This document shows positions 3,245-41,209 of a stretch of 64,000 bases of DNA, one piece after another; position 1 is the stretch's first letter, and each line of letters begins with the position of its first letter. Source of the stretch: a virus; the IMG/VR virus record IMGVR_UViG_3300031911_000004, positions 541 to 64,540 of that record. One strand, given 5' to 3'. The notes beneath the pieces are model-generated. The model was not told where the DNA came from. It did no database searches and was given only the letters and a program-made list of their open reading frames with translations. A program made the position numbers and the translations under genes.

Positions 3245-3320
3245 TGGAAGCCCCCGGCCCGAATCGAACGGGCAACCAGCATATTACGAGTATGCCGCTC
3301 TACCATTGAGCTACAGGGGC
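3245..3320 (-). tRNA. tRNA-Thr(CGT)
   Basis: Cloverleaf: acceptor GCCCCTG/CGGGGGC, D arm GCTC-AATGGTA-GAGC, anticodon arm GCATA-CTCGTAA-TATGC, T arm GCCCG-TTCGATT-CGGGC; 3' end reads T-TCCA. Confidence 0.93.
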
Positions 3321-6268: not shown

Positions 6269-6763
6269 ATGCAATCCACCGAACCAATCACAGAGGAATG
6301 GTTGAAGTCTGTCGGCTTCAAGTGGCATCAATTCTACCGTCAACCCGGCAAGCATTGGCTGCTTTGGATGGGTTCAGTCAAGCCGAGGGGGTTCAACGGA
6401 ACGGAGGATCTGGGAATTGAGGTTGCGTTCAGCCGGGACAATGAATGGTTCTGCTGGCTGCGGTCAGACACAGCGCATCGGTACAGCCGATTCATCCACA
6501 TCAGACACATCACGTCGCAGTCAGATGTCATATCGCTCGTAGAGGCATGCACTGGCGTGCCGTGGTGCCCTGAAAACCATCTATACGGATCGGTTCATTG
6601 TCAGGAGCATGCCGATTCAATCCGAAGGGATGATGAACGACTCGACCGCCGCATGCTTCGCGAAGGTCACCCATGGAAAGACTCAGAGAAAGATCCGACG
6701 CAAGGTCGCCCGCTGGCTGAGCATCTTGATGTTGCCGAAAAGGTTCGCGAGAACCTGCAATAA
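6269..6763 (+). CDS. Hypothetical phage protein
   Basis: PITEEWLKSVGF N-terminal motif is common in phage proteins. Confidence 0.65.
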   Translation: MQSTEPITEEWLKSVGFKWHQFYRQPGKHWLLWMGSVKPRGFNGTEDLGIEVAFSRDNEWFCWLRSDTAHRYSRFIHIRHITSQSDVISLVEACTGVPWCPENHLYGSVHCQEHADSIRRDDERLDRRMLREGHPWKDSEKDPTQGRPLAEHLDVAEKVRENLQ

Positions 6764-12141: not shown

Positions 12142-12238
12142 GGGAGGGAGTATGGTTGCGGCAGACGGAGTTGCACCATCATCTCAGCCGTATGAGAGCT
12201 GCGTTTTGCTGTTATACTATGCCGCGATTTTCGCGACC

Positions 12239-35463: not shown

Positions 35464-36075
35464 CTACTGCTTGCGGGCGCGGAGTTTCCACCACTCCCAC
35501 GGGACTTTCTTGCCGTCCTCTACAACGTAGCGATCTTTACGGCCAGAGGCTTTCCCGGTGGCAGTCATCTTCCCGCCTTGTGTGGACTCGGCTTCAACGC
35601 CTGAGAATGCATTTGCGGTGCTGTTGCCATCCGTCTTGGCAGTCGCTGAAACAGCAGGTTCTCTAGCCTTCGCGGATTTACGCTTCACTCGCTCAGCCTC
35701 AGCATAAGCGCGAGCGTACTCAGGGGAAGATCCCCGAGACGTATAGTAGGCTTCCGACTCCTTGTCGGATGTGTCACCACCACCTTGAACCTCAGCACGG
35801 CGTCGTTTCCGATACGATTCCTCACGGGCCATCGCAGCGTTGGACTTCTCGTTCTGTGCTTGATCCTCGGCGGCTTTGAATACCGCGTCAGGATCTCCAC
35901 CGCGTGCAGCAATCCGGCTGGCAAGCGCCTGCTCGGCGTTGACTCCCCGGATACGTCCCGGCACACCGCCAGAAGACGAGCGGCTCAACATGCGGGCAGC
36001 ACCAACATAATCGCCACGGTTCTCCATGGCGGCGGCACGTGCTCGGGATGCCCAACGAGGAAGGGTGGTTGCCAT
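35464..36075 (-). CDS. Putative small ejection/internal virion protein
   Basis: Basic, Ala/Arg-rich; upstream of the giant protein. Confidence 0.55.
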   Translation of the reverse strand: MATTLPRWASRARAAAMENRGDYVGAARMLSRSSSGGVPGRIRGVNAEQALASRIAARGGDPDAVFKAAEDQAQNEKSNAAMAREESYRKRRRAEVQGGGDTSDKESEAYYTSRGSSPEYARAYAEAERVKRKSAKAREPAVSATAKTDGNSTANAFSGVEAESTQGGKMTATGKASGRKDRYVVEDGKKVPWEWWKLRARKQ

Positions 36076-36078
36076 AAG

Positions 36079-36561
36079 TTATCGGCTACTACGGGCTTTG
36101 CGGAGTTTCGCCATGTTGACGGCACCATCCCACGACATCGTGCCTTCATTCCACGTCTGGCCGACTGCACGGCGAAGCGCCTGCTTACGTGCATCGCCCA
36201 TCTTGGCGTCACGGATTTGGTTCACTCGGAAAGTGTAGTCTGAGTCAACCTGCTGAGTGCGGAGTTTGTCAAGGTTCGCCTGTTCGAGATCCTGAAGGGC
36301 ATCAGACCCGACTTTGACCCGCACAGTTCCCGGCTGCCCTTGGCGAGCGCCTGCCCCATCTCCTGCGTAGACACCTGTGCCGCGGCGATAGTTGGTGTTG
36401 GCAGCGGAGTTGCGGGCAACGCTGTCCATGGCGGCTGAAACCCCCTGTTTAGCGGCCATCTGTCGCGCCTGGGACTGGTAAAGCAGATCGTTCTTGGCCT
36501 TGTCGCGCTCGTGGGCGAGTTTCTTGACCAGACTGCTGGCGGATTGGAGTTTGATGGCCAT
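36079..36561 (-). CDS. Putative small ejection/internal virion protein
   Basis: Basic, Ala/Gln-rich; same operon. Confidence 0.55.
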   Translation of the reverse strand: MAIKLQSASSLVKKLAHERDKAKNDLLYQSQARQMAAKQGVSAAMDSVARNSAANTNYRRGTGVYAGDGAGARQGQPGTVRVKVGSDALQDLEQANLDKLRTQQVDSDYTFRVNQIRDAKMGDARKQALRRAVGQTWNEGTMSWDGAVNMAKLRKARSSR

Positions 36562-36566
36562 GGCGG

Positions 36567-36854
36567 TTATTCCTCAGATTCTGGGTTGCGGCGGGACTTC
36601 TTCTTGGCGCGTTGAGCCATCCCGGCCCAGCCAACAGCGCGGAGATCCCGCAGAAAGTCTTCCTGCGCCTTGTCCATCATCGGGGCTATTGCGGAACCCG
36701 CAACCGGGACTGCGATCCTGCCTTGTCGGCGCTGCCCCAAGTGGTTGACGTTGGGGTCGAACTTGGCGGGTTGCTGCTGGACCCGCAGTCTTTCCCGGTT
36801 CTGGAATGCCGGGGACTTGCGGGCAGTGCTGAAGTTTGTCGCGATCCCTGCCAT
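36567..36854 (-). CDS. Small basic protein, first gene of the ejection operon
   Basis: 95 aa; TTGCGC promoter-like element upstream. Confidence 0.5.
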   Translation of the reverse strand: MAGIATNFSTARKSPAFQNRERLRVQQQPAKFDPNVNHLGQRRQGRIAVPVAGSAIAPMMDKAQEDFLRDLRAVGWAGMAQRAKKKSRRNPESEE

Positions 36855-37088
36855 AATGGCAGCATGATGCGATTTTCAAGGCTTTGGCGCAAGTGGTATT
36901 TTGAACGCCTTGATTGTCATACAGAAAGAACCCTCCCGATCCGGCCTCTCTCTCGCACGCAAGAGAGGTTTGGAGGATGGCCAGAAGGGGAGAGTAAGGG
37001 TATGACGCAGAAGGTAGGTTTTCTGGATTCGGAAATTGCCGCACAGCCTGATCAAAACCGCCGCTTTGGATTCTGAGTGCCTAAATTC

Positions 37089-37165
37089 ACCCGAGAGGTA
37101 CAGTGGGCTTTTTCATCCGATGGTTCACAGGCTATTGTCCAGCTACGACTTCCTTTCCTTCGGGC
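37089..37165 (-). ncRNA. Unrecognised structured RNA motif, copy 2
   Basis: Closing stem GCCCGA/TCGGGT; blocks AGTCGTAG, CTGTGAAC and TGTACCT shared with copy 1. Confidence 0.55.
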
Positions 37166-37226
37166 GTCAAATTGGTGCGTAACATTCAAGAAACGCGGAA
37201 ACCTTATCTTGTGGAGGGCGGGAGAA

Positions 37227-37347
37227 TCAGGACTGAAGAGATGGATTCGGGACTCGAACTCCGAACGTCACTTTCGTGACACTGCGTGATTGCCTAGGAT
37301 CAGCAGCGCGTCTACCAGCTTCCGCCAATCCATCTCTTCAGTCCTGA
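37227..37347 (-). ncRNA. tRNA-Leu-like RNA with a 21-bp closing stem
   Basis: Perfect 21-bp inverted repeat (37227-37247 / 37327-37347) enclosing a Leu-type D arm GCGGAAGCTGGTAGACGC, an enlarged anticodon arm, variable arm GTCAC-GAAA-GTGAC and T loop TTCGAGT; no CCA. Confidence 0.75.
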
Positions 37348-37354
37348 ATTTATG

Positions 37355-37429
37355 CCGCTGTCTGGTGTTCAACAAGGTACACATATAACCCCGTTCGCAG
37401 TTCTCCTACGACTCTATTCCAGACAGCGG
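37355..37429 (-). ncRNA. Unrecognised structured RNA motif, copy 1
   Basis: Perfect 11-bp closing stem CCGCTGTCTGG/CCAGACAGCGG; blocks AGTCGTAG, CTGCGAAC, TGTACCT. Confidence 0.6.
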
Positions 37430-37447
37430 GTTAAGGGTTGATTGATG

Positions 37448-37699
37448 CTAGTCGCATCCGCAACTGTTGCAAGCAGAACTTGAGGATGAATCCCCGCTCG
37501 TCATGTAAAGGAAGTTTTGAGCGGCGGTGAAACCAGCCATCGGGTCAGGCTGCGAATCTGTCGAGATCGAAGTGAAAGACCGTTGTTTCTTGGCTGGTGG
37601 CTTGGTAGGCTCAGCCTTTCGCGTTGGCGCACGCTCATTCTCTTCATGCTTCAGGCCGGAAAACAGGGCGGTGAATCTTGGAACGTCGTAGGATGCCAT
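37448..37699 (-). CDS. 83-aa protein whose N-terminus resembles the major capsid N-terminus
   Basis: Start MASYDVPRFT at 37699, 5 nt after the upstream stop; C-terminal CNSCGCD. Confidence 0.6.
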   Translation of the reverse strand: MASYDVPRFTALFSGLKHEENERAPTRKAEPTKPPAKKQRSFTSISTDSQPDPMAGFTAAQNFLYMTSGDSSSSSACNSCGCD

Positions 37700-37704
37700 A
37701 GTGG

Positions 37705-38109
37705 TTACTGGTTGATTGCTCTCGGTCCGATGTTGCGGCCACGGCGACGGAGGATGGAGGTCTTGGCGTGTTTCTGGCGGACTATAGCACGTCGGGCAAA
37801 CACTTGTCTTGCTTCCCAATCTTTGATATACGCCTCCCCTTGGGCCTTCCGTTCGTCATTGCGGCGTTTACACTCGGCCCTGGCTATCACCTCCAGCGCC
37901 TTCCCTTGTGGGCTGTCATATGGCTGCTTGATGAGCGCCCATGTCATGCCCCTGTCATCAACGTGGTATTCTATGTCTGAGGCGTATGCAGGCTTTGACC
38001 AGTTGCTCGTGTCGGGCGGGTCATCTCGGTATATCCACCACAGAGCAATCTTCACGATGCTCAAAGTGCCCAATCCGACAGCAAGAATCCAGAAGAGTGT
38101 TTCCATCAC
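37705..38109 (-). CDS. Membrane-anchored hypothetical protein
   Basis: N-terminal TM helix LFWILAVGLGTLSIVKIALWWIY. Confidence 0.6.
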   Translation of the reverse strand: MMETLFWILAVGLGTLSIVKIALWWIYRDDPPDTSNWSKPAYASDIEYHVDDRGMTWALIKQPYDSPQGKALEVIARAECKRRNDERKAQGEAYIKDWEARQVFARRAIVRQKHAKTSILRRRGRNIGPRAINQ

Positions 38110-38459
38110 AATCCCTCCCCCTCTGTGAATGTGATCTGAATGCAGGCGATGCGAGGTCCGCCCATTTCGTCGGCATCCTCCTTGGTCTCAAACAGACCAT
38201 TGCAACTGCCATTGTACACGTTTGTCCACATGGTTCGCGTAACCGGGGCCATGAAGAGGTCGTTGCCGCTTGTGGTTGCATCATCATGATACCCACCATT
38301 CACGATGAACGTTTCCATTCTCCTGTTGATACTGGCAACTATTTGATAGTTGTCGCAATCGGCGCAGTACGTGATGAACGTAGCAGGTCTCCCGTTACGT
38401 GTCTGTATCGGGTGGCCAGCTTGGGCCAACTTCAGGTCAAAAGGCTTCAGGGCGCTCAT
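38106..38459 (-). CDS. Conserved phage hypothetical protein
   Basis: KPFDLKLAQAGHPIQTRNGRPA...DLFM motif. Confidence 0.65.
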   Translation of the reverse strand: MSALKPFDLKLAQAGHPIQTRNGRPATFITYCADCDNYQIVASINRRMETFIVNGGYHDDATTSGNDLFMAPVTRTMWTNVYNGSCNGLFETKEDADEMGGPRIACIQITFTEGEGL

Positions 38460-38746
38460 ACTTCTGGGTCGAATTTGGATTTGAACTCTTTGTCTGACAT
38501 GACGTGAGGATTGTTGATGTCGTCCCACACCACCCAATCTCCAATCTGCAAATCTCTGCCCCACCAGTTAGAGCAGCGGACTACGACTGATCTGATGATG
38601 CGCTTCCCATTGTCTACCTGCCAGTTGTTGAGGTAGATGGGTTTAGGCAGTTCCTGCTTGTCGAAGATGTGAGACGCCACCAACTCCAATGTCACCTGAA
38701 ACGCTTGGAAGCGCTGTGGTTTGCTGATGAAGACTTGGGTTGCCAT
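38456..38746 (-). CDS. Conserved phage hypothetical protein
   Basis: KP..FQAFQ...IGDWVV...F..KF pattern. Confidence 0.6.
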   Translation of the reverse strand: MATQVFISKPQRFQAFQVTLELVASHIFDKQELPKPIYLNNWQVDNGKRIIRSVVVRCSNWWGRDLQIGDWVVWDDINNPHVMSDKEFKSKFDPEV

Positions 38747-38917
38747 ACTGTTGGATTTGAAGAAGTCAGCCAGTCCAGGTTGCTCACAGATGAGGTTTCA
38801 GTTCGTCTCGTGTACTTGAAGACGGACCATGTGTTTTCCGCTGCGCCCTCGATGCTGGCTGACTCAGCCGTCATTCTCCCCACTTGCGCAATCATTGCAA
38901 GCGGTTTTCTCCACAAA

Positions 38918-41209
38918 TCACAACCCATGCGCCTGATTGTCCCAGTCGAACCCATCATCGCGATAGCTGTATTGGGCATCTGGTGGCCCCTCAAGATGTG
39001 GCGTGAACTGGGTCGCAAACTGAATGCACGACATCCCGACCGAGAGCATACGCAGCCAGTCGTCGCGTTCACCAGCGGGTGGAACTGGGTCGCCGTCTTT
39101 GTTCACCGTGATGTAGCTGAGTTGGCGGATCATCTCGGGACAGTTGACGACGAGCTTCTGTTCGCGGATCACCCTGTCGAGGTTGTCGGTGGATTGACGG
39201 TGGAGCCCTGGCTTGCTGAGCCAGCCGAATGTCTCTGTGGACTTCCCTTGCGTGAGCCGTGAGCCGTCGGCACCCATTCCCGGCCCCCAGAGGTTCTGCA
39301 CGCCGATCTCCATCAGCCTGTTTGCGGCGTTGTCGAGGTTGTCGATGATCGGCACCACGGTACACCGCCCGTACATCCGATGGAGCGCCAACACGCGCTG
39401 CATCACCACATCGGGCGCTGATTCGTCCTCAAGTTGCAATGCCGCCACGAGTTTCGCAGGTGTCACGGCCCGCGTCTCCGGGTCTACATGCTCCGAGCAA
39501 AGCACGCCTATCGCGTTGGTGTCGCGGCGGGTGGCGCTGCCGACCAGCAACTTCCCATCTCGAAACCTCACTGACAACACATAGGATCGGCCTTCCATCG
39601 GCGTATTCCACACCCGGCACCATCCGCCTGGGTTATCCCGTGGCACGCTCGCCCGCGTGGTCTCATTGGTGATGATCTCCATGATTCTCGGCTGGGCCGT
39701 GGTCGGAACCGAGGCGATACGGAGACGCTCGACACCCGAGGCATCGAAGCGGCGGCTGGATTTTGTGACCATCACCCCCGACATCTTGGCCTCAGCCTTT
39801 ACACGCAGGGAGTCGCAAAAGTGACTGCACCAGTTATGCACGATGTCGTTCGTCAACAACCCCGTCTTTTCATCCTGCTTGCGTCGGTACTCGCGGAGGG
39901 CCTCCAACCCACGCTTGCATTTATCGGCATCGAACATGCAGAGGTCCAGCATCTTCGAGACCTCGTTGATGCCCAGCCATGGATCGGTTGTTCTCGGGAC
40001 GGTGACGACGTTCTCCAATCCAGCGAGCGTCAATTCCTCGCGGAAGGTCATGCCGCCAGGGCGTAGTGCGTTCGCATCGTGTGGTACGTAGTGGGCGTTG
40101 AAGTCATAGCCCTTCGCCCGCATGTGGGCCGTGCGCTGCTCGGTCGTCAAAAACAGGTTGTGGTCGCAGTCGATGACATGCTCGTACCCAGCAATCGTTT
40201 GCGTGTACCAGACGACCGTGTTCTCGGGTGCTCCGAGATCCCAGAAGGTGTCCACGGTGTACTCTGGATTGTGCGGCAGCGAGGTAATCTGGCCGCGGGT
40301 CATCAGCGTGTCCATCATCACCCCATAGATTGCCCCGATGATTGGAGCCTCCCAGCACTCGTCGATGGTGCTCGGGAACTCGCGCTTCATCTTCGACCCC
40401 TGTTGAGCGGAGGTCAGCGTGTACCAACGCTTTTGCGCCTGGGTGAAACCTTTTTTCGTCTTCTCAGCCAGATCCCTGAAATATTGCTCCACCTCTCCTG
40501 AGACGGTGCCGCCATCGAATCGGGCGCACTCCGGGTCATTGTGCCACGGGAAGAACATCAGCACGCCCTCGGCATCCTCTGCCTTCTTCATGATCGGCTC
40601 GATCAACTCCCAGAGGTCTCCAGACTTCCCGCCCATCCACGTAGTCTCGACCACGCGTTTCCCCTTACGTGCCGCAGGAAGCGCGCCGGACCGGATTTCC
40701 GCTGACCTGGGCCTGTCCTCGAACGCGATTGGCCCCCACTCGGAGACCCAGAGGAACGAGCAGTCGCCCCCGCGGGCTTGCACGCCTGCATGGATGCTCG
40801 ACTTGAACTCATCGGGAACCGTCTTGATCTTCAACTCGAAGTCTGAGTCAGACCGCTTGAATACCTCCAGCCTGCTTGTCAACTCGTCGGGCATGGATTC
40901 AGCCGCGAACCTGATGATGTTGCGCATCTTCTCAGCCGCGAACTCTTTGGATCGCTCGATCAGCCTCGCCTGGGTGCCGCCTTTCCAGATTGCCTCGTCA
41001 GCCATAGCCACTCCGATCCCGGTGGACAGCCCCAAGCGGCGGGCTTTGATGATGTAGACTGGCACCGTTGGGCTTTCACGCAAGGATGTGATGACCATCT
41101 CCTGCTCTTGGCGCATCTTGAAAGGGATGGGATCACCTTCCCCCTCTTTGCGGATCTTGTAGAGGTTGGAGAGACGCCATCTCCAGTCGGCGAGGAGTTC
41201 GGGGGTCAT
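38918..41209 (-). CDS. terL: Terminase large subunit with C-terminal extension
   Basis: Walker A IIKARRLGLST, Walker B FLWVSEWG, coupling motif ETT, nuclease WDLG...SHFCDSLR. Confidence 0.9.
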   Translation of the reverse strand: MTPELLADWRWRLSNLYKIRKEGEGDPIPFKMRQEQEMVITSLRESPTVPVYIIKARRLGLSTGIGVAMADEAIWKGGTQARLIERSKEFAAEKMRNIIRFAAESMPDELTSRLEVFKRSDSDFELKIKTVPDEFKSSIHAGVQARGGDCSFLWVSEWGPIAFEDRPRSAEIRSGALPAARKGKRVVETTWMGGKSGDLWELIEPIMKKAEDAEGVLMFFPWHNDPECARFDGGTVSGEVEQYFRDLAEKTKKGFTQAQKRWYTLTSAQQGSKMKREFPSTIDECWEAPIIGAIYGVMMDTLMTRGQITSLPHNPEYTVDTFWDLGAPENTVVWYTQTIAGYEHVIDCDHNLFLTTEQRTAHMRAKGYDFNAHYVPHDANALRPGGMTFREELTLAGLENVVTVPRTTDPWLGINEVSKMLDLCMFDADKCKRGLEALREYRRKQDEKTGLLTNDIVHNWCSHFCDSLRVKAEAKMSGVMVTKSSRRFDASGVERLRIASVPTTAQPRIMEIITNETTRASVPRDNPGGWCRVWNTPMEGRSYVLSVRFRDGKLLVGSATRRDTNAIGVLCSEHVDPETRAVTPAKLVAALQLEDESAPDVVMQRVLALHRMYGRCTVVPIIDNLDNAANRLMEIGVQNLWGPGMGADGSRLTQGKSTETFGWLSKPGLHRQSTDNLDRVIREQKLVVNCPEMIRQLSYITVNKDGDPVPPAGERDDWLRMLSVGMSCIQFATQFTPHLEGPPDAQYSYRDDGFDWDNQAHGL

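What the first reader, a model, noticed from the sequence alone, without database searches (positions are those of the whole stretch)
37227..37347. tRNA-Leu mimic locked in a perfect 21-bp stem with a rebuilt anticodon arm
Seen: on the - strand a Leu-type D arm, long variable arm (GTCAC-GAAA-GTGAC) and T loop (TTCGAGT) are intact. The acceptor helix, however, continues into a perfect 21-bp duplex (TCAGGACTGAAGAGATGGATT / AATCCATCTCTTCAGTCCTGA) with no CCA. The anticodon arm is 25 nt rather than 17 (CTGC-TGAT-CCTAGGCA-ATCA-C-GCAG), with an 8-nt loop containing the palindrome CCTAGG and C where U33 should be. Every helix still pairs, which argues against random decay. Established: YrlA Y RNAs are tRNA-like, but they attach their long stem at the anticodon position and sit near Ro60, which was not recognised here. 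Inference: a non-aminoacylated tRNA mimic, for example a decoy for anticodon nucleases or LeuRS, an RNase III/P-processed precursor, or a kissing-loop dimer.
Basis: partly seen in the sequence, partly recalled or inferred. Interest (0 to 1): 0.85.

Follow-up and report, generated by a model that had tools for sequence, protein, structure and literature searches.

The report
Stem-clamped leucine-tRNA look-alike in phage
An uncultured soil phage carries a small RNA gene shaped like a leucine tRNA that cannot read codons and is clamped shut by a long perfect stem; it is an unusual variant of a widespread, poorly studied kind of phage tRNA look-alike whose job is unknown.

Summary
On the minus strand at 37227-37347 lies a class-II (Leu-type) tRNA body. 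Its acceptor helix runs on into a perfect 21-bp leader/trailer duplex, the longest perfect inverted repeat in the window. Its anticodon arm is a 25-nt interrupted 8-bp helix with an 8-nt loop.

ARAGORN at default settings and Rfam do not call it. A covariance model built from 50 similar phage elements hits it alone in the window, at 50.7 bits.

It belongs with a large class of phage Leu-type tRNA look-alikes with aberrant lower halves: at least 111 IMG/VR loci, an unannotated SPP1 locus and T5 RNA1, annotated 'tRNA-like stable RNA with unknown functions'. This scan noted the family before on other DNA.

The 21-bp clamp is unique among 74 distinct elements; the others have 10 bp or fewer. No homologue of this copy and no RNA data were found, so function stays inferred. 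The most likely reading is an RNase III-type processing stalk releasing a non-decoding tRNA-shaped RNA that acts as a decoy. It is not a Y RNA, retron RNA or attP. Moderate interest.

The parts
37227..37347 (-). Whole stem-clamped tRNA-Leu-like element (121 nt)
   Evidence: Sequence; fold -61.6 kcal/mol, z -7.4; inverted repeat I1
37335..37347 (-). 5' strand of the 13-bp leader/trailer extension (UCAGGACUGAAGA)
   Evidence: Perfect complement of 37227-37239. The 13-mer occurs nowhere else in the window without mismatch.
37227..37239 (-). 3' strand of the extension; 37239 is the U at the discriminator position, paired with A(-1)
37239..37334 (-). tRNA-like body (acceptor 37328-37334 / 37240-37246)
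   Evidence: Model R1 matches positions 1-95 of 95, 50.7 bits, E 5e-11; it is the only hit in the window at E<=10. ARAGORN at -ps90 draws the same 7-bp acceptor stem.
37308..37325 (-). D arm, Leu type (3-bp stem GCG/CGC)
   Evidence: The 20-nt string around it is identical in 16 bacterial tRNA genes, 15 Leu and 1 Ser
37282..37306 (-). Extended anticodon-position arm: 4+4 bp, bulged C, 8-nt loop CCUAGGCA (loop 37291-37298)
   Evidence: CCTAGG occurs only 2 times in the window against 6.6 +/- 2.6 expected.
37265..37281 (-). Class-II variable arm GUCAC-GAAA-GUGAC
   Evidence: same build as in canonical tRNA-Leu genes
37247..37264 (-). T arm with canonical loop UUCGAGU and one bulged A in the stem
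   Evidence: the A is an insert state in the model alignment
37350..37434 (-). Second stem-closed module, 2 nt upstream of the clamp (16-nt arms, 88% complementary, 53 nt between)
   Evidence: Not tRNA-like by R1 with filters off (2.8 bits on the - strand, 4.8 on the +).
36855..37447 (-). Gene-free gap that holds the element
   Evidence: By codon usage the 156-aa ORF 36574-37044 looks non-coding (-0.13) and the 95-aa ORF 36567-36854 looks coding (+0.286); training genes score 0.20-0.41, apart from the GIY-YIG gene at -0.12
37781..37810 (-). Only sigma-70-like promoter match near the element, upstream of the 83-aa ORF; no terminator-like site in 36500-38200
   Evidence: a consensus match only
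36920..38056 (.). 1137-bp segment (two small ORFs, the promoter-like site, the RNA modules) replaced by 22 nt in one contig of another metagenome
   Evidence: run X6, record 9: a 151-nt contig at depth 2.3, with sides of 74 and 53 letters and 2 and 1 differences. A single low-depth contig. GC of the segment is 0.534 against 0.598 and 0.561 in the flanks.

Best explanation
It is a real, non-decoding RNA gene: a class-II (leucine-type) tRNA look-alike. It is a divergent variant of the widespread phage class that includes T5 RNA1 and an unannotated SPP1 locus.

Shown: the tRNA-Leu body (acceptor, D arm, variable arm, T loop) is intact. The anticodon loop is replaced by a helix extension. Leader and trailer form 13 extra perfect base pairs. 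A second stem-closed module lies back to back with it in a gene-free gap on the coding strand.

Inferred mechanism: the element is transcribed with the minus-strand operon. The 21-bp leader/trailer duplex, coaxial with the T arm, works as a processing stalk. A double-strand-specific nuclease of the RNase III type cuts it, as in the stems that flank 16S and 23S rRNA. That cut frees a stable tRNA-shaped RNA and separates the neighbouring messages. The freed RNA cannot decode, and with U73 and a closed end it is probably not leucylated. It most likely acts in trans by occupying a protein that recognises tRNA shape or the tRNA-Leu(UAG)-like loop (UAGG is kept), for example a host tRNA-cleaving defence nuclease. 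The identity is well supported; the stalk role and the decoy role are inference.
For: Structure and chance.

Membership:
- Fifty of the 55 distinct elements with an acceptor stem of 7 bp or more were aligned. In that alignment, 98.1% of 745 cells pair in the acceptor, D and T helices. The covariation score is 0.585 against 0.165 +/- 0.012 in shuffles, and 0.078-0.110 when partners are slid. Ten of 15 pairs change on both sides.
- Model R1 built from them hits the window once, at 37239-37334, with 50.7 bits. That is above T5's true tRNA-Leu at 44.8 bits.
- R1 also finds SPP1 6648-6755 (30.3 bits, no RNA annotated there). It finds T5 RNA1, annotated 'tRNA-like stable RNA with unknown functions' (30.7 bits). 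The class therefore includes an RNA annotated in GenBank as a stable RNA.

Lower halves of the class are non-canonical and unalike. ARAGORN at default settings called 41 of the 114 matching stretches in 114 loci, three of which hold this same element, many with 2- or 4-letter 'anticodons'.

Not decayed members of tRNA arrays: 47 of 71 distinct elements have no other tRNA in the locus held.

Clamp: 21 bp here against 10 bp or fewer in the other 73 distinct elements. A second stem-closed module lies 2 nt away.

Co-orientation with the flanking genes, with no terminator-like site.

RNase III binds the duplexes that flank 16S and 23S rRNA (PMC8708148, passage read).

Anti-phage tRNA nucleases are established (PrrC, AriB of PARIS, PtuAB, Schlafen), and phage tRNAs that escape them are known (PMC13056530, passages; PMC10264068 and PMC11555353, abstracts).
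Against: - No homologue of this copy was found: 0 hits for two patterns in metagenome contigs, 0 for a 24-nt pattern in viral contigs, and only L052 for the G26/CCC pattern. blastn against sequenced phages gave only two 24-nt D-arm hits at E = 4. The 13-bp stalk and the extended arm therefore have no covariation support.
- The class was gathered with a pattern taken from this element. The 19 pattern letters are invariant in the model, so part of the 50.7 bits is there by construction. R1 also hits ordinary tRNAs.
- This copy departs from the class: U not A at position 73, a bulged T stem, A not U at position -1.
- A perfect Watson-Crick duplex with no G-U pair is also what a recent DNA-level event would leave.
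- One contig of another metagenome lacks the whole 1137-bp segment, so the element may be dispensable.
- The phage encodes no RNase III and no CCA-adding enzyme, so processing would depend on an unknown host.
Confidence: 0.55

Rival explanations
1. A purely cis-acting punctuation element. The tRNA shape and the long duplex serve only as RNase P, RNase III or RNase E entry or barrier sites that set the stability and ratio of the upstream and downstream messages. The excised RNA has no job of its own.
For: It lies inside an operon-like run of minus-strand genes with no terminator-like site, back to back with another stem-closed module. Class members sit at module borders next to unrelated genes. 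Among 20 neighbouring proteins from 12 loci, 4 are head or packaging proteins, and the rest are helicases, exonucleases, methyltransferase, glycosyltransferases, phosphoesterases or unknown. The SPP1 copy lies in the head operon.
Against: A plain hairpin would do for processing. Keeping a full Leu-type D arm, variable arm and T loop across very different phages points to recognition of the tRNA body. T5 RNA1 is annotated as a stable RNA.
Confidence: 0.2
2. A neutral relic: a phage or captured tRNA-Leu gene that lost function. The inverted repeat and the near-palindromic insert in the anticodon loop come from DNA-level events, such as insertion into a pre-existing hairpin or palindrome formation.
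For: A singleton with no relatives. The duplex is perfect Watson-Crick. The segment is absent from one related contig. It has lower GC than its flanks.
Against: All five helices pair, and all changes relative to a canonical tRNA-Leu build helices rather than break them. The extension is 13 bp, longer than a 7-bp acceptor remnant could give. R1 with filters off finds no tRNA remnant in the flanks; the next best hits are 5.1 bits or less.
Confidence: 0.15
3. After trimming, it is a chargeable tRNA. It is leucylated and used either for unusual decoding (an 8-nt loop, four-base or UAG-related reading) or as an aminoacyl donor outside the ribosome.
For: The Leu-type body is intact. LeuRS does not read the anticodon (recalled, not checked here). 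The loop keeps UAGG, as in the tRNA-Leu(UAG) gene. One class member, L013, has an extended stem, a canonical CUUCUAA loop and an encoded CCA.
Against: U at position 73 instead of the A of the class. The ends are locked in 13 extra pairs. The anticodon helix is 8 bp instead of 5, with C where U33 should be. The phage's genes read open in the standard code.
Confidence: 0.05
4. A Y-RNA-like partner of a Ro60 protein.
For: Y RNAs mimic tRNA (PMC4201824). A P100-like Listeria phage paper proposes Y RNAs beside an Rsr-like gene (PMC12282133, passages).
Against: This element has the tRNA order, not the permuted YrlA order. No TROVE gene in this complete phage, nor in 0 of 42 class-bearing viral records, 0 of 14 among those at least 90% complete. 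No Rfam Y RNA hit.
Confidence: 0.03
5. A DNA-level site (attP, recombination or protein-binding palindrome) whose tRNA likeness is secondary.
For: A perfect inverted repeat and a CCTAGG palindrome. tRNA genes are common integration targets (general knowledge).
Against: No tyrosine integrase and no reverse transcriptase in the complete record. The full tRNA body is present, not just a 3' half. The record has direct terminal repeats.
Confidence: 0.02

Closest known systems
Phage T5 RNA1 (T5s03, GenBank NC_005859: 'tRNA-like stable RNA with unknown functions')
   Same: A Leu-type D arm, T arm and 7-bp end helix with a non-decoding interior. It matches the same model over its full length (30.7 bits). 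Function unknown.
   Different: T5 RNA1 carries a 33-nt insert in the D loop and sits in a tRNA cluster. It has no 21-bp clamp. Here the D loop is canonical, the anticodon arm is extended, and the gene stands alone.
Canonical class-II tRNA-Leu (Rfam RF00005)
   Same: An identical D arm, the same stem-GAAA-stem variable arm, a T loop and a 7-bp acceptor stem.
   Different: A 25-nt arm with an 8-nt loop and no U33, a bulged T stem, U73, and ends locked in a duplex. No Rfam tRNA hit even at E<=10 and no default ARAGORN call.
RNase III leader/trailer stems of rRNA operons and phage transcripts
   Same: Flanks of a stable RNA pair into a duplex of about two helical turns (PMC8708148).
   Different: The cargo is a 96-nt tRNA mimic. 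Cleavage is not shown, and there is no covariation data.
Bacterial and phage Y RNAs (YrlA)
   Same: tRNA-like D and T arms in a non-coding RNA with a long stem.
   Different: The module order is permuted and the long stem sits at the anticodon position in YrlA. No Ro60 gene here.
Phage tRNAs with altered anticodon loops that escape anticodon nucleases
   Same: A phage-encoded tRNA body with a changed anticodon loop (PMC10264068, abstract).
   Different: Those tRNAs still decode; this one cannot.

Membership tests
Canonical tRNA (Rfam RF00005 / ARAGORN) | Score at or above the curated threshold, or a default detector call | tested here: not met
   No tRNA hit at gathering or at E<=10 in 36900-37700. 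ARAGORN at default finds none. Only at -ps90 does it give a 97-nt 'tRNA-Gly(tcc)' with a poor T stem.
Canonical tRNA (Rfam RF00005 / ARAGORN) | 5-bp anticodon stem, 7-nt loop, U33 | tested here: not met
   An 8-bp interrupted stem and the 8-nt loop CCUAGGCA
Canonical tRNA (Rfam RF00005 / ARAGORN) | 7-bp acceptor stem, D arm, T loop with GUUCGAGUC | tested here: met
Phage Leu-type tRNA look-alikes (T5 RNA1 class) | Leu-type D arm plus T arm plus 7-bp end helix, matched by a model built from other members | tested here: met
   R1 50.7 bits, E 5e-11, full length. Caveat: the members were gathered with a pattern taken from this element.
Phage Leu-type tRNA look-alikes (T5 RNA1 class) | Lower half that is not a decoding anticodon arm | tested here: met
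Phage Leu-type tRNA look-alikes (T5 RNA1 class) | A at the discriminator position and free ends (closing helix 7-10 bp) | tested here: not met
   U at 37239. The closing helix is 21 bp against 10 bp or fewer in the 73 other distinct elements.
Phage Leu-type tRNA look-alikes (T5 RNA1 class) | Made as a discrete stable RNA | not testable with these tools
   No RNA holder of the stretch
YrlA / Y RNA | Permuted order (T arm, closed stem-loop, D arm) with the ends in a Ro60-binding stem | tested here: not met
   The order here is D, anticodon, variable, T (PMC4201824)
YrlA / Y RNA | Ro60 (TROVE) gene nearby | tested here: not met
   0 matches in the complete record
RNase III processing stalk | Leader and trailer form a duplex of about 20 bp or more around a stable RNA | tested here: met
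   21 perfect bp
RNase III processing stalk | Cleavage by RNase III; compensatory changes in relatives | not testable with these tools
   No relatives; no RNA data
Retron non-coding RNA | Adjacent reverse transcriptase | tested here: not met
   No RVT_1 match in the record
attP in a tRNA gene | Integrase in the element | tested here: not met
   No Phage_integrase match; serine recombinases were not searched

The most novel reading that the evidence does not exclude
The clamp and the palindromic loop are functional. The RNA is stored inert in its 21-bp stalk and is released by RNase III during infection. It then acts as a dedicated counter-defence decoy that presents a tRNA-Leu(UAG)-like loop on an over-long stem to a host tRNA-cleaving nuclease, possibly as a CCUAGG kissing dimer. 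If so, 'anticodon-less' Leu look-alikes would be a general RNA-based anti-defence class in phages.
Probability: 0.12. Interest if true: 0.8.

Novelty: new variant of a known kind. Interest (0 to 1): 0.45.

Why it matters
Phage tRNA look-alikes have been known since the T5 and T4 stable RNAs but have no assigned function. In six full-text searches of the held library I found no description of the Leu-type family. The model phages offer a way in: SPP1 carries an unannotated copy, and T5 RNA1 is a member. This copy adds a variant in which the tRNA body is locked in a long perfect duplex beside another stem-closed module. That layout links the look-alikes to RNase III-style excision of small RNAs from phage operons. 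If the decoy reading holds, it would be an RNA-only counter-measure to tRNA-cleaving defence systems.

Tried and rejected
Relatives of the phage:
- The 156-aa ORF, TerL and P0100 as queries in viral contigs gave no relative.
- blastn of 36000-39000 against sequenced phages gave no match.
- TerL homologues are at most 53% identical; the named ones are Verrucomicrobia proteins.

Homologues of the element:
- Searches found none.
- blastn of a class member (L033) against sequenced phages found nothing.

RNA evidence:
- No RNA holder was listed.
- The laid runs X2, X3, X4 and X6 gave only short contigs. None covers 37250-37757. X4, labelled RNA-Seq but probably DNA, covers 36989-37152 only.

A shared motif in the variable interiors:
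- The best 5-mers reach z of about 4 among 1024 tested, which is not convincing.

Similarity of the two flanks of the element:
- Local alignment scores 27 against 20.8 +/- 3.9 for shuffles (maximum 33), which is not significant.
- The flanks are not tRNA-like.
- The downstream 387 nt is not clearly structured (z -1.9).

A partner for the loop:
- The only other CCTAGG (50787) lies inside a coding region.

Neighbouring ORFs:
- No PHROG, Pfam or PADLOC family was found, apart from TerL, the portal protein and one HTH protein.

Host clue from the D arm:
- Exact matches are mostly Dehalococcoidia tRNA-Leu, which is not informative.

Other limits:
- Supplementary files of papers were not opened.
- Recalled and not checked here: T4 species 1 and 2 RNAs and their cleavage by RNase III; the preference of RNase P for U at -1; LeuRS ignoring the anticodon; phi29 pRNA.

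Full report
**What is there**

The window is positions 541-64540 of a complete 64.5-kb virus record with direct terminal repeats. Its large terminase is at most 53% identical to anything in the protein collection; the named relatives are Verrucomicrobia proteins. No sequenced phage matches the region.

On the minus strand, 37347 to 37227 reads as follows:
- a 13-nt leader;
- a 7-nt acceptor strand GAUGGAU, then U8 and G9;
- a Leu-type D arm;
- a 25-nt arm CUGC-UGAU-CCUAGGCA-AUCA-C-GCAG;
- a variable arm GUCAC-GAAA-GUGAC;
- a T arm UCGG-A-G / UUCGAGU / CCCGA;
- the acceptor strand AUCCAUC;
- a 13-nt trailer that is the exact complement of the leader.

The 21-nt arms are 100% complementary. They form the longest perfect inverted repeat within 200 nt in the window. 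The RNA folds at -61.6 kcal/mol (z -7.4), and the cloverleaf inside the clamp is 4.4 kcal/mol above that minimum. Two features were missed: the T stem needs a bulged A, and the discriminator position holds U.

**Detectors**

ARAGORN at default settings finds only tRNA-Thr and tRNA-Met in the window. Rfam finds the same two at gathering threshold. It finds no tRNA or Y RNA in 36900-37700 even at E<=10. Relaxed ARAGORN draws the 7-bp acceptor stem but a poor T stem.

**A class of look-alikes**

I took the D-arm and T-loop motifs of the element and asked for a spacing too long for a normal tRNA-Leu. They are 90-105-nt genes with a Leu-type D arm, a T arm and a 7-8-bp end helix. Their interiors are unalike: usually two hairpins, with loops of 3 to 19 nt. 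ARAGORN at default called 41 of the 114 matching stretches (three of them this element itself), often with 2- or 4-letter 'anticodons'. Some reach the Rfam tRNA threshold at 35-45 bits.

I aligned 50 of the 55 distinct elements with an acceptor stem of 7 bp or more. The 5 dropped were near-duplicates or carried D-loop inserts. In that alignment:
- the acceptor, D and T helices are paired in 98.1% of 745 cells;
- the covariation score is 0.585, against 0.165 in shuffles and about 0.1 when partners are slid;
- 10 of 15 pairs change on both sides.

The model R1 built from these elements hits the window once, at 37239-37334, over its full length, at 50.7 bits.

There are caveats. The class was gathered with this element's own motifs, so part of the score is built in. 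R1 also hits ordinary tRNAs: T5 tRNA-Leu scores 44.8 bits.

Independent of my pattern, R1 finds two further members:
- an unannotated locus in SPP1 at 6648-6755, between genes 9 and 11 (30.3 bits);
- T5 RNA1, which GenBank annotates as 'tRNA-like stable RNA with unknown functions' (30.7 bits, with a 33-nt insert in the D loop).

T5 RNA2 matches only weakly (14.2 bits, E 0.097).

Earlier notes of this scan describe the same family on other genomes. I reached it independently. I then checked the SPP1 and T5 claims myself.

**How this copy differs**

Among 74 distinct elements the closing helix is 21 bp here and 10 bp or fewer in all the others; 8 bp is the commonest length. Most members have A at the discriminator position and U at -1. 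Here these are U and A, and they pair.

I compared the element with canonical tRNA-Leu genes that share its exact D arm (16 genomes). The variable arm has the same build. The 7-nt anticodon loop, however, has been replaced by a 4-bp helix with an 8-nt loop. That loop still reads UAGG, as in the tRNA-Leu(UAG) gene. The chance of a Leu anticodon plus purine-37 falling in register is a few per cent by my estimate, so this is suggestive only.

**Context**

- By codon usage the 156-aa ORF next door looks non-coding and a 95-aa ORF looks real. The element therefore lies in a gene-free gap at 36855-37447.
- A second stem-closed module lies 2 nt upstream.
- The only promoter-like site is at 37781-37810, and there is no terminator-like site.
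- The neighbouring ORFs match no family.
- The complete phage record has no TROVE/Ro60, tyrosine integrase, RNase III, reverse transcriptase or CCA-adding enzyme.
- None of 42 class-bearing viral records encodes TROVE.
- 47 of 71 distinct class members stand without another tRNA in the locus held.
- Their neighbours are unrelated genes, sometimes terminase or head genes.
- One 151-nt contig from another metagenome joins 36919 to 38057 with 22 other letters between. A near relative may therefore lack the whole 1137-bp segment. This rests on a single low-depth contig.

**Reading**

Identity is well supported: a non-decoding, Leu-type tRNA look-alike of the T5 RNA1 kind.

For the clamp, the best analogy is the leader/trailer duplexes that RNase III cuts to free 16S and 23S rRNA (PMC8708148, passage read). 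Earlier notes of this scan report stem-clamped small-RNA cassettes of about 21 bp in other phages; I did not check those.

For the body, a decoy role is plausible. Anti-phage tRNA nucleases are established, and phage tRNAs that escape them are known (PMC13056530, passages; PMC10264068 and PMC11555353, abstracts). The decoy role remains inference.

The rivals cannot be excluded without relatives or RNA data. They are a cis-only processing element, a neutral relic, and a chargeable tRNA. The Y RNA, retron and attP readings each fail a defining feature.

**Verdict**

This is a new variant of a known but unexplained kind of RNA, of moderate interest.

Noticed in passing
L115 (SPP1, NC_004166) 6648-6755 +: An unannotated Leu-type tRNA look-alike in the head-gene operon of model phage SPP1 (R1 30.3 bits). 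It overlaps the opposite-strand 'gene 10' CDS, which the record flags as conflicting with its translation.
   Followed up: partly
L006, L008, L012, L020 and about 40 further loci: One subfamily accounts for 44 of the 114 pattern matches. Its enlarged 19-nt 'anticodon' loop is complementary to the variable region (CAGATAGATT / AATCTGTC), which suggests a pseudoknot.
   Followed up: no
L013:2101-2190 +: A Leu-type body with an extended anticodon stem, but a canonical CUUCUAA loop and an encoded CCA. It may be a working class-II-shaped tRNA-Arg(UCU).
   Followed up: no
L017, L026, L036, L112; T5 RNA1 (L116 10513-10643): Several class members carry a hairpin inserted in the D loop; T5 RNA1 has a 33-nt insert there.
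   Followed up: partly
window 36574-37044 (-) versus 36567-36854 (-): The 156-aa ORF is low-complexity and scores as non-coding by codon usage. The 95-aa ORF in another frame scores as coding.
   Followed up: partly
window 36920-38056: In one contig of run X6 this 1137-bp segment is replaced by 22 nt. This may be a presence/absence polymorphism of an accessory cassette. The segment's GC is 0.534 against 0.56-0.60 in the flanks.
   Followed up: partly
window 12153-12226 (-) and 3249-3320 (-): The phage tRNA-Met has a C1/A72 mismatch, the mark of a bacterial initiator (recalled), and an encoded CCA. tRNA-Thr(CGU) has no encoded CCA.
   Followed up: no
window 38918-41209 (-): The terminase large subunit is 763 aa, whereas relatives cover only its first 63% or so. 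One 781-aa protein (P0100, 35% identity, 96% coverage, on a 64-kb contig) shares the long form.
   Followed up: no
window 36855-37226 (-): Further hairpins lie downstream of the element, for example a module closed by AGCCUG...CAGGCU. As a whole the stretch is not significantly structured (z -1.9).
   Followed up: partly
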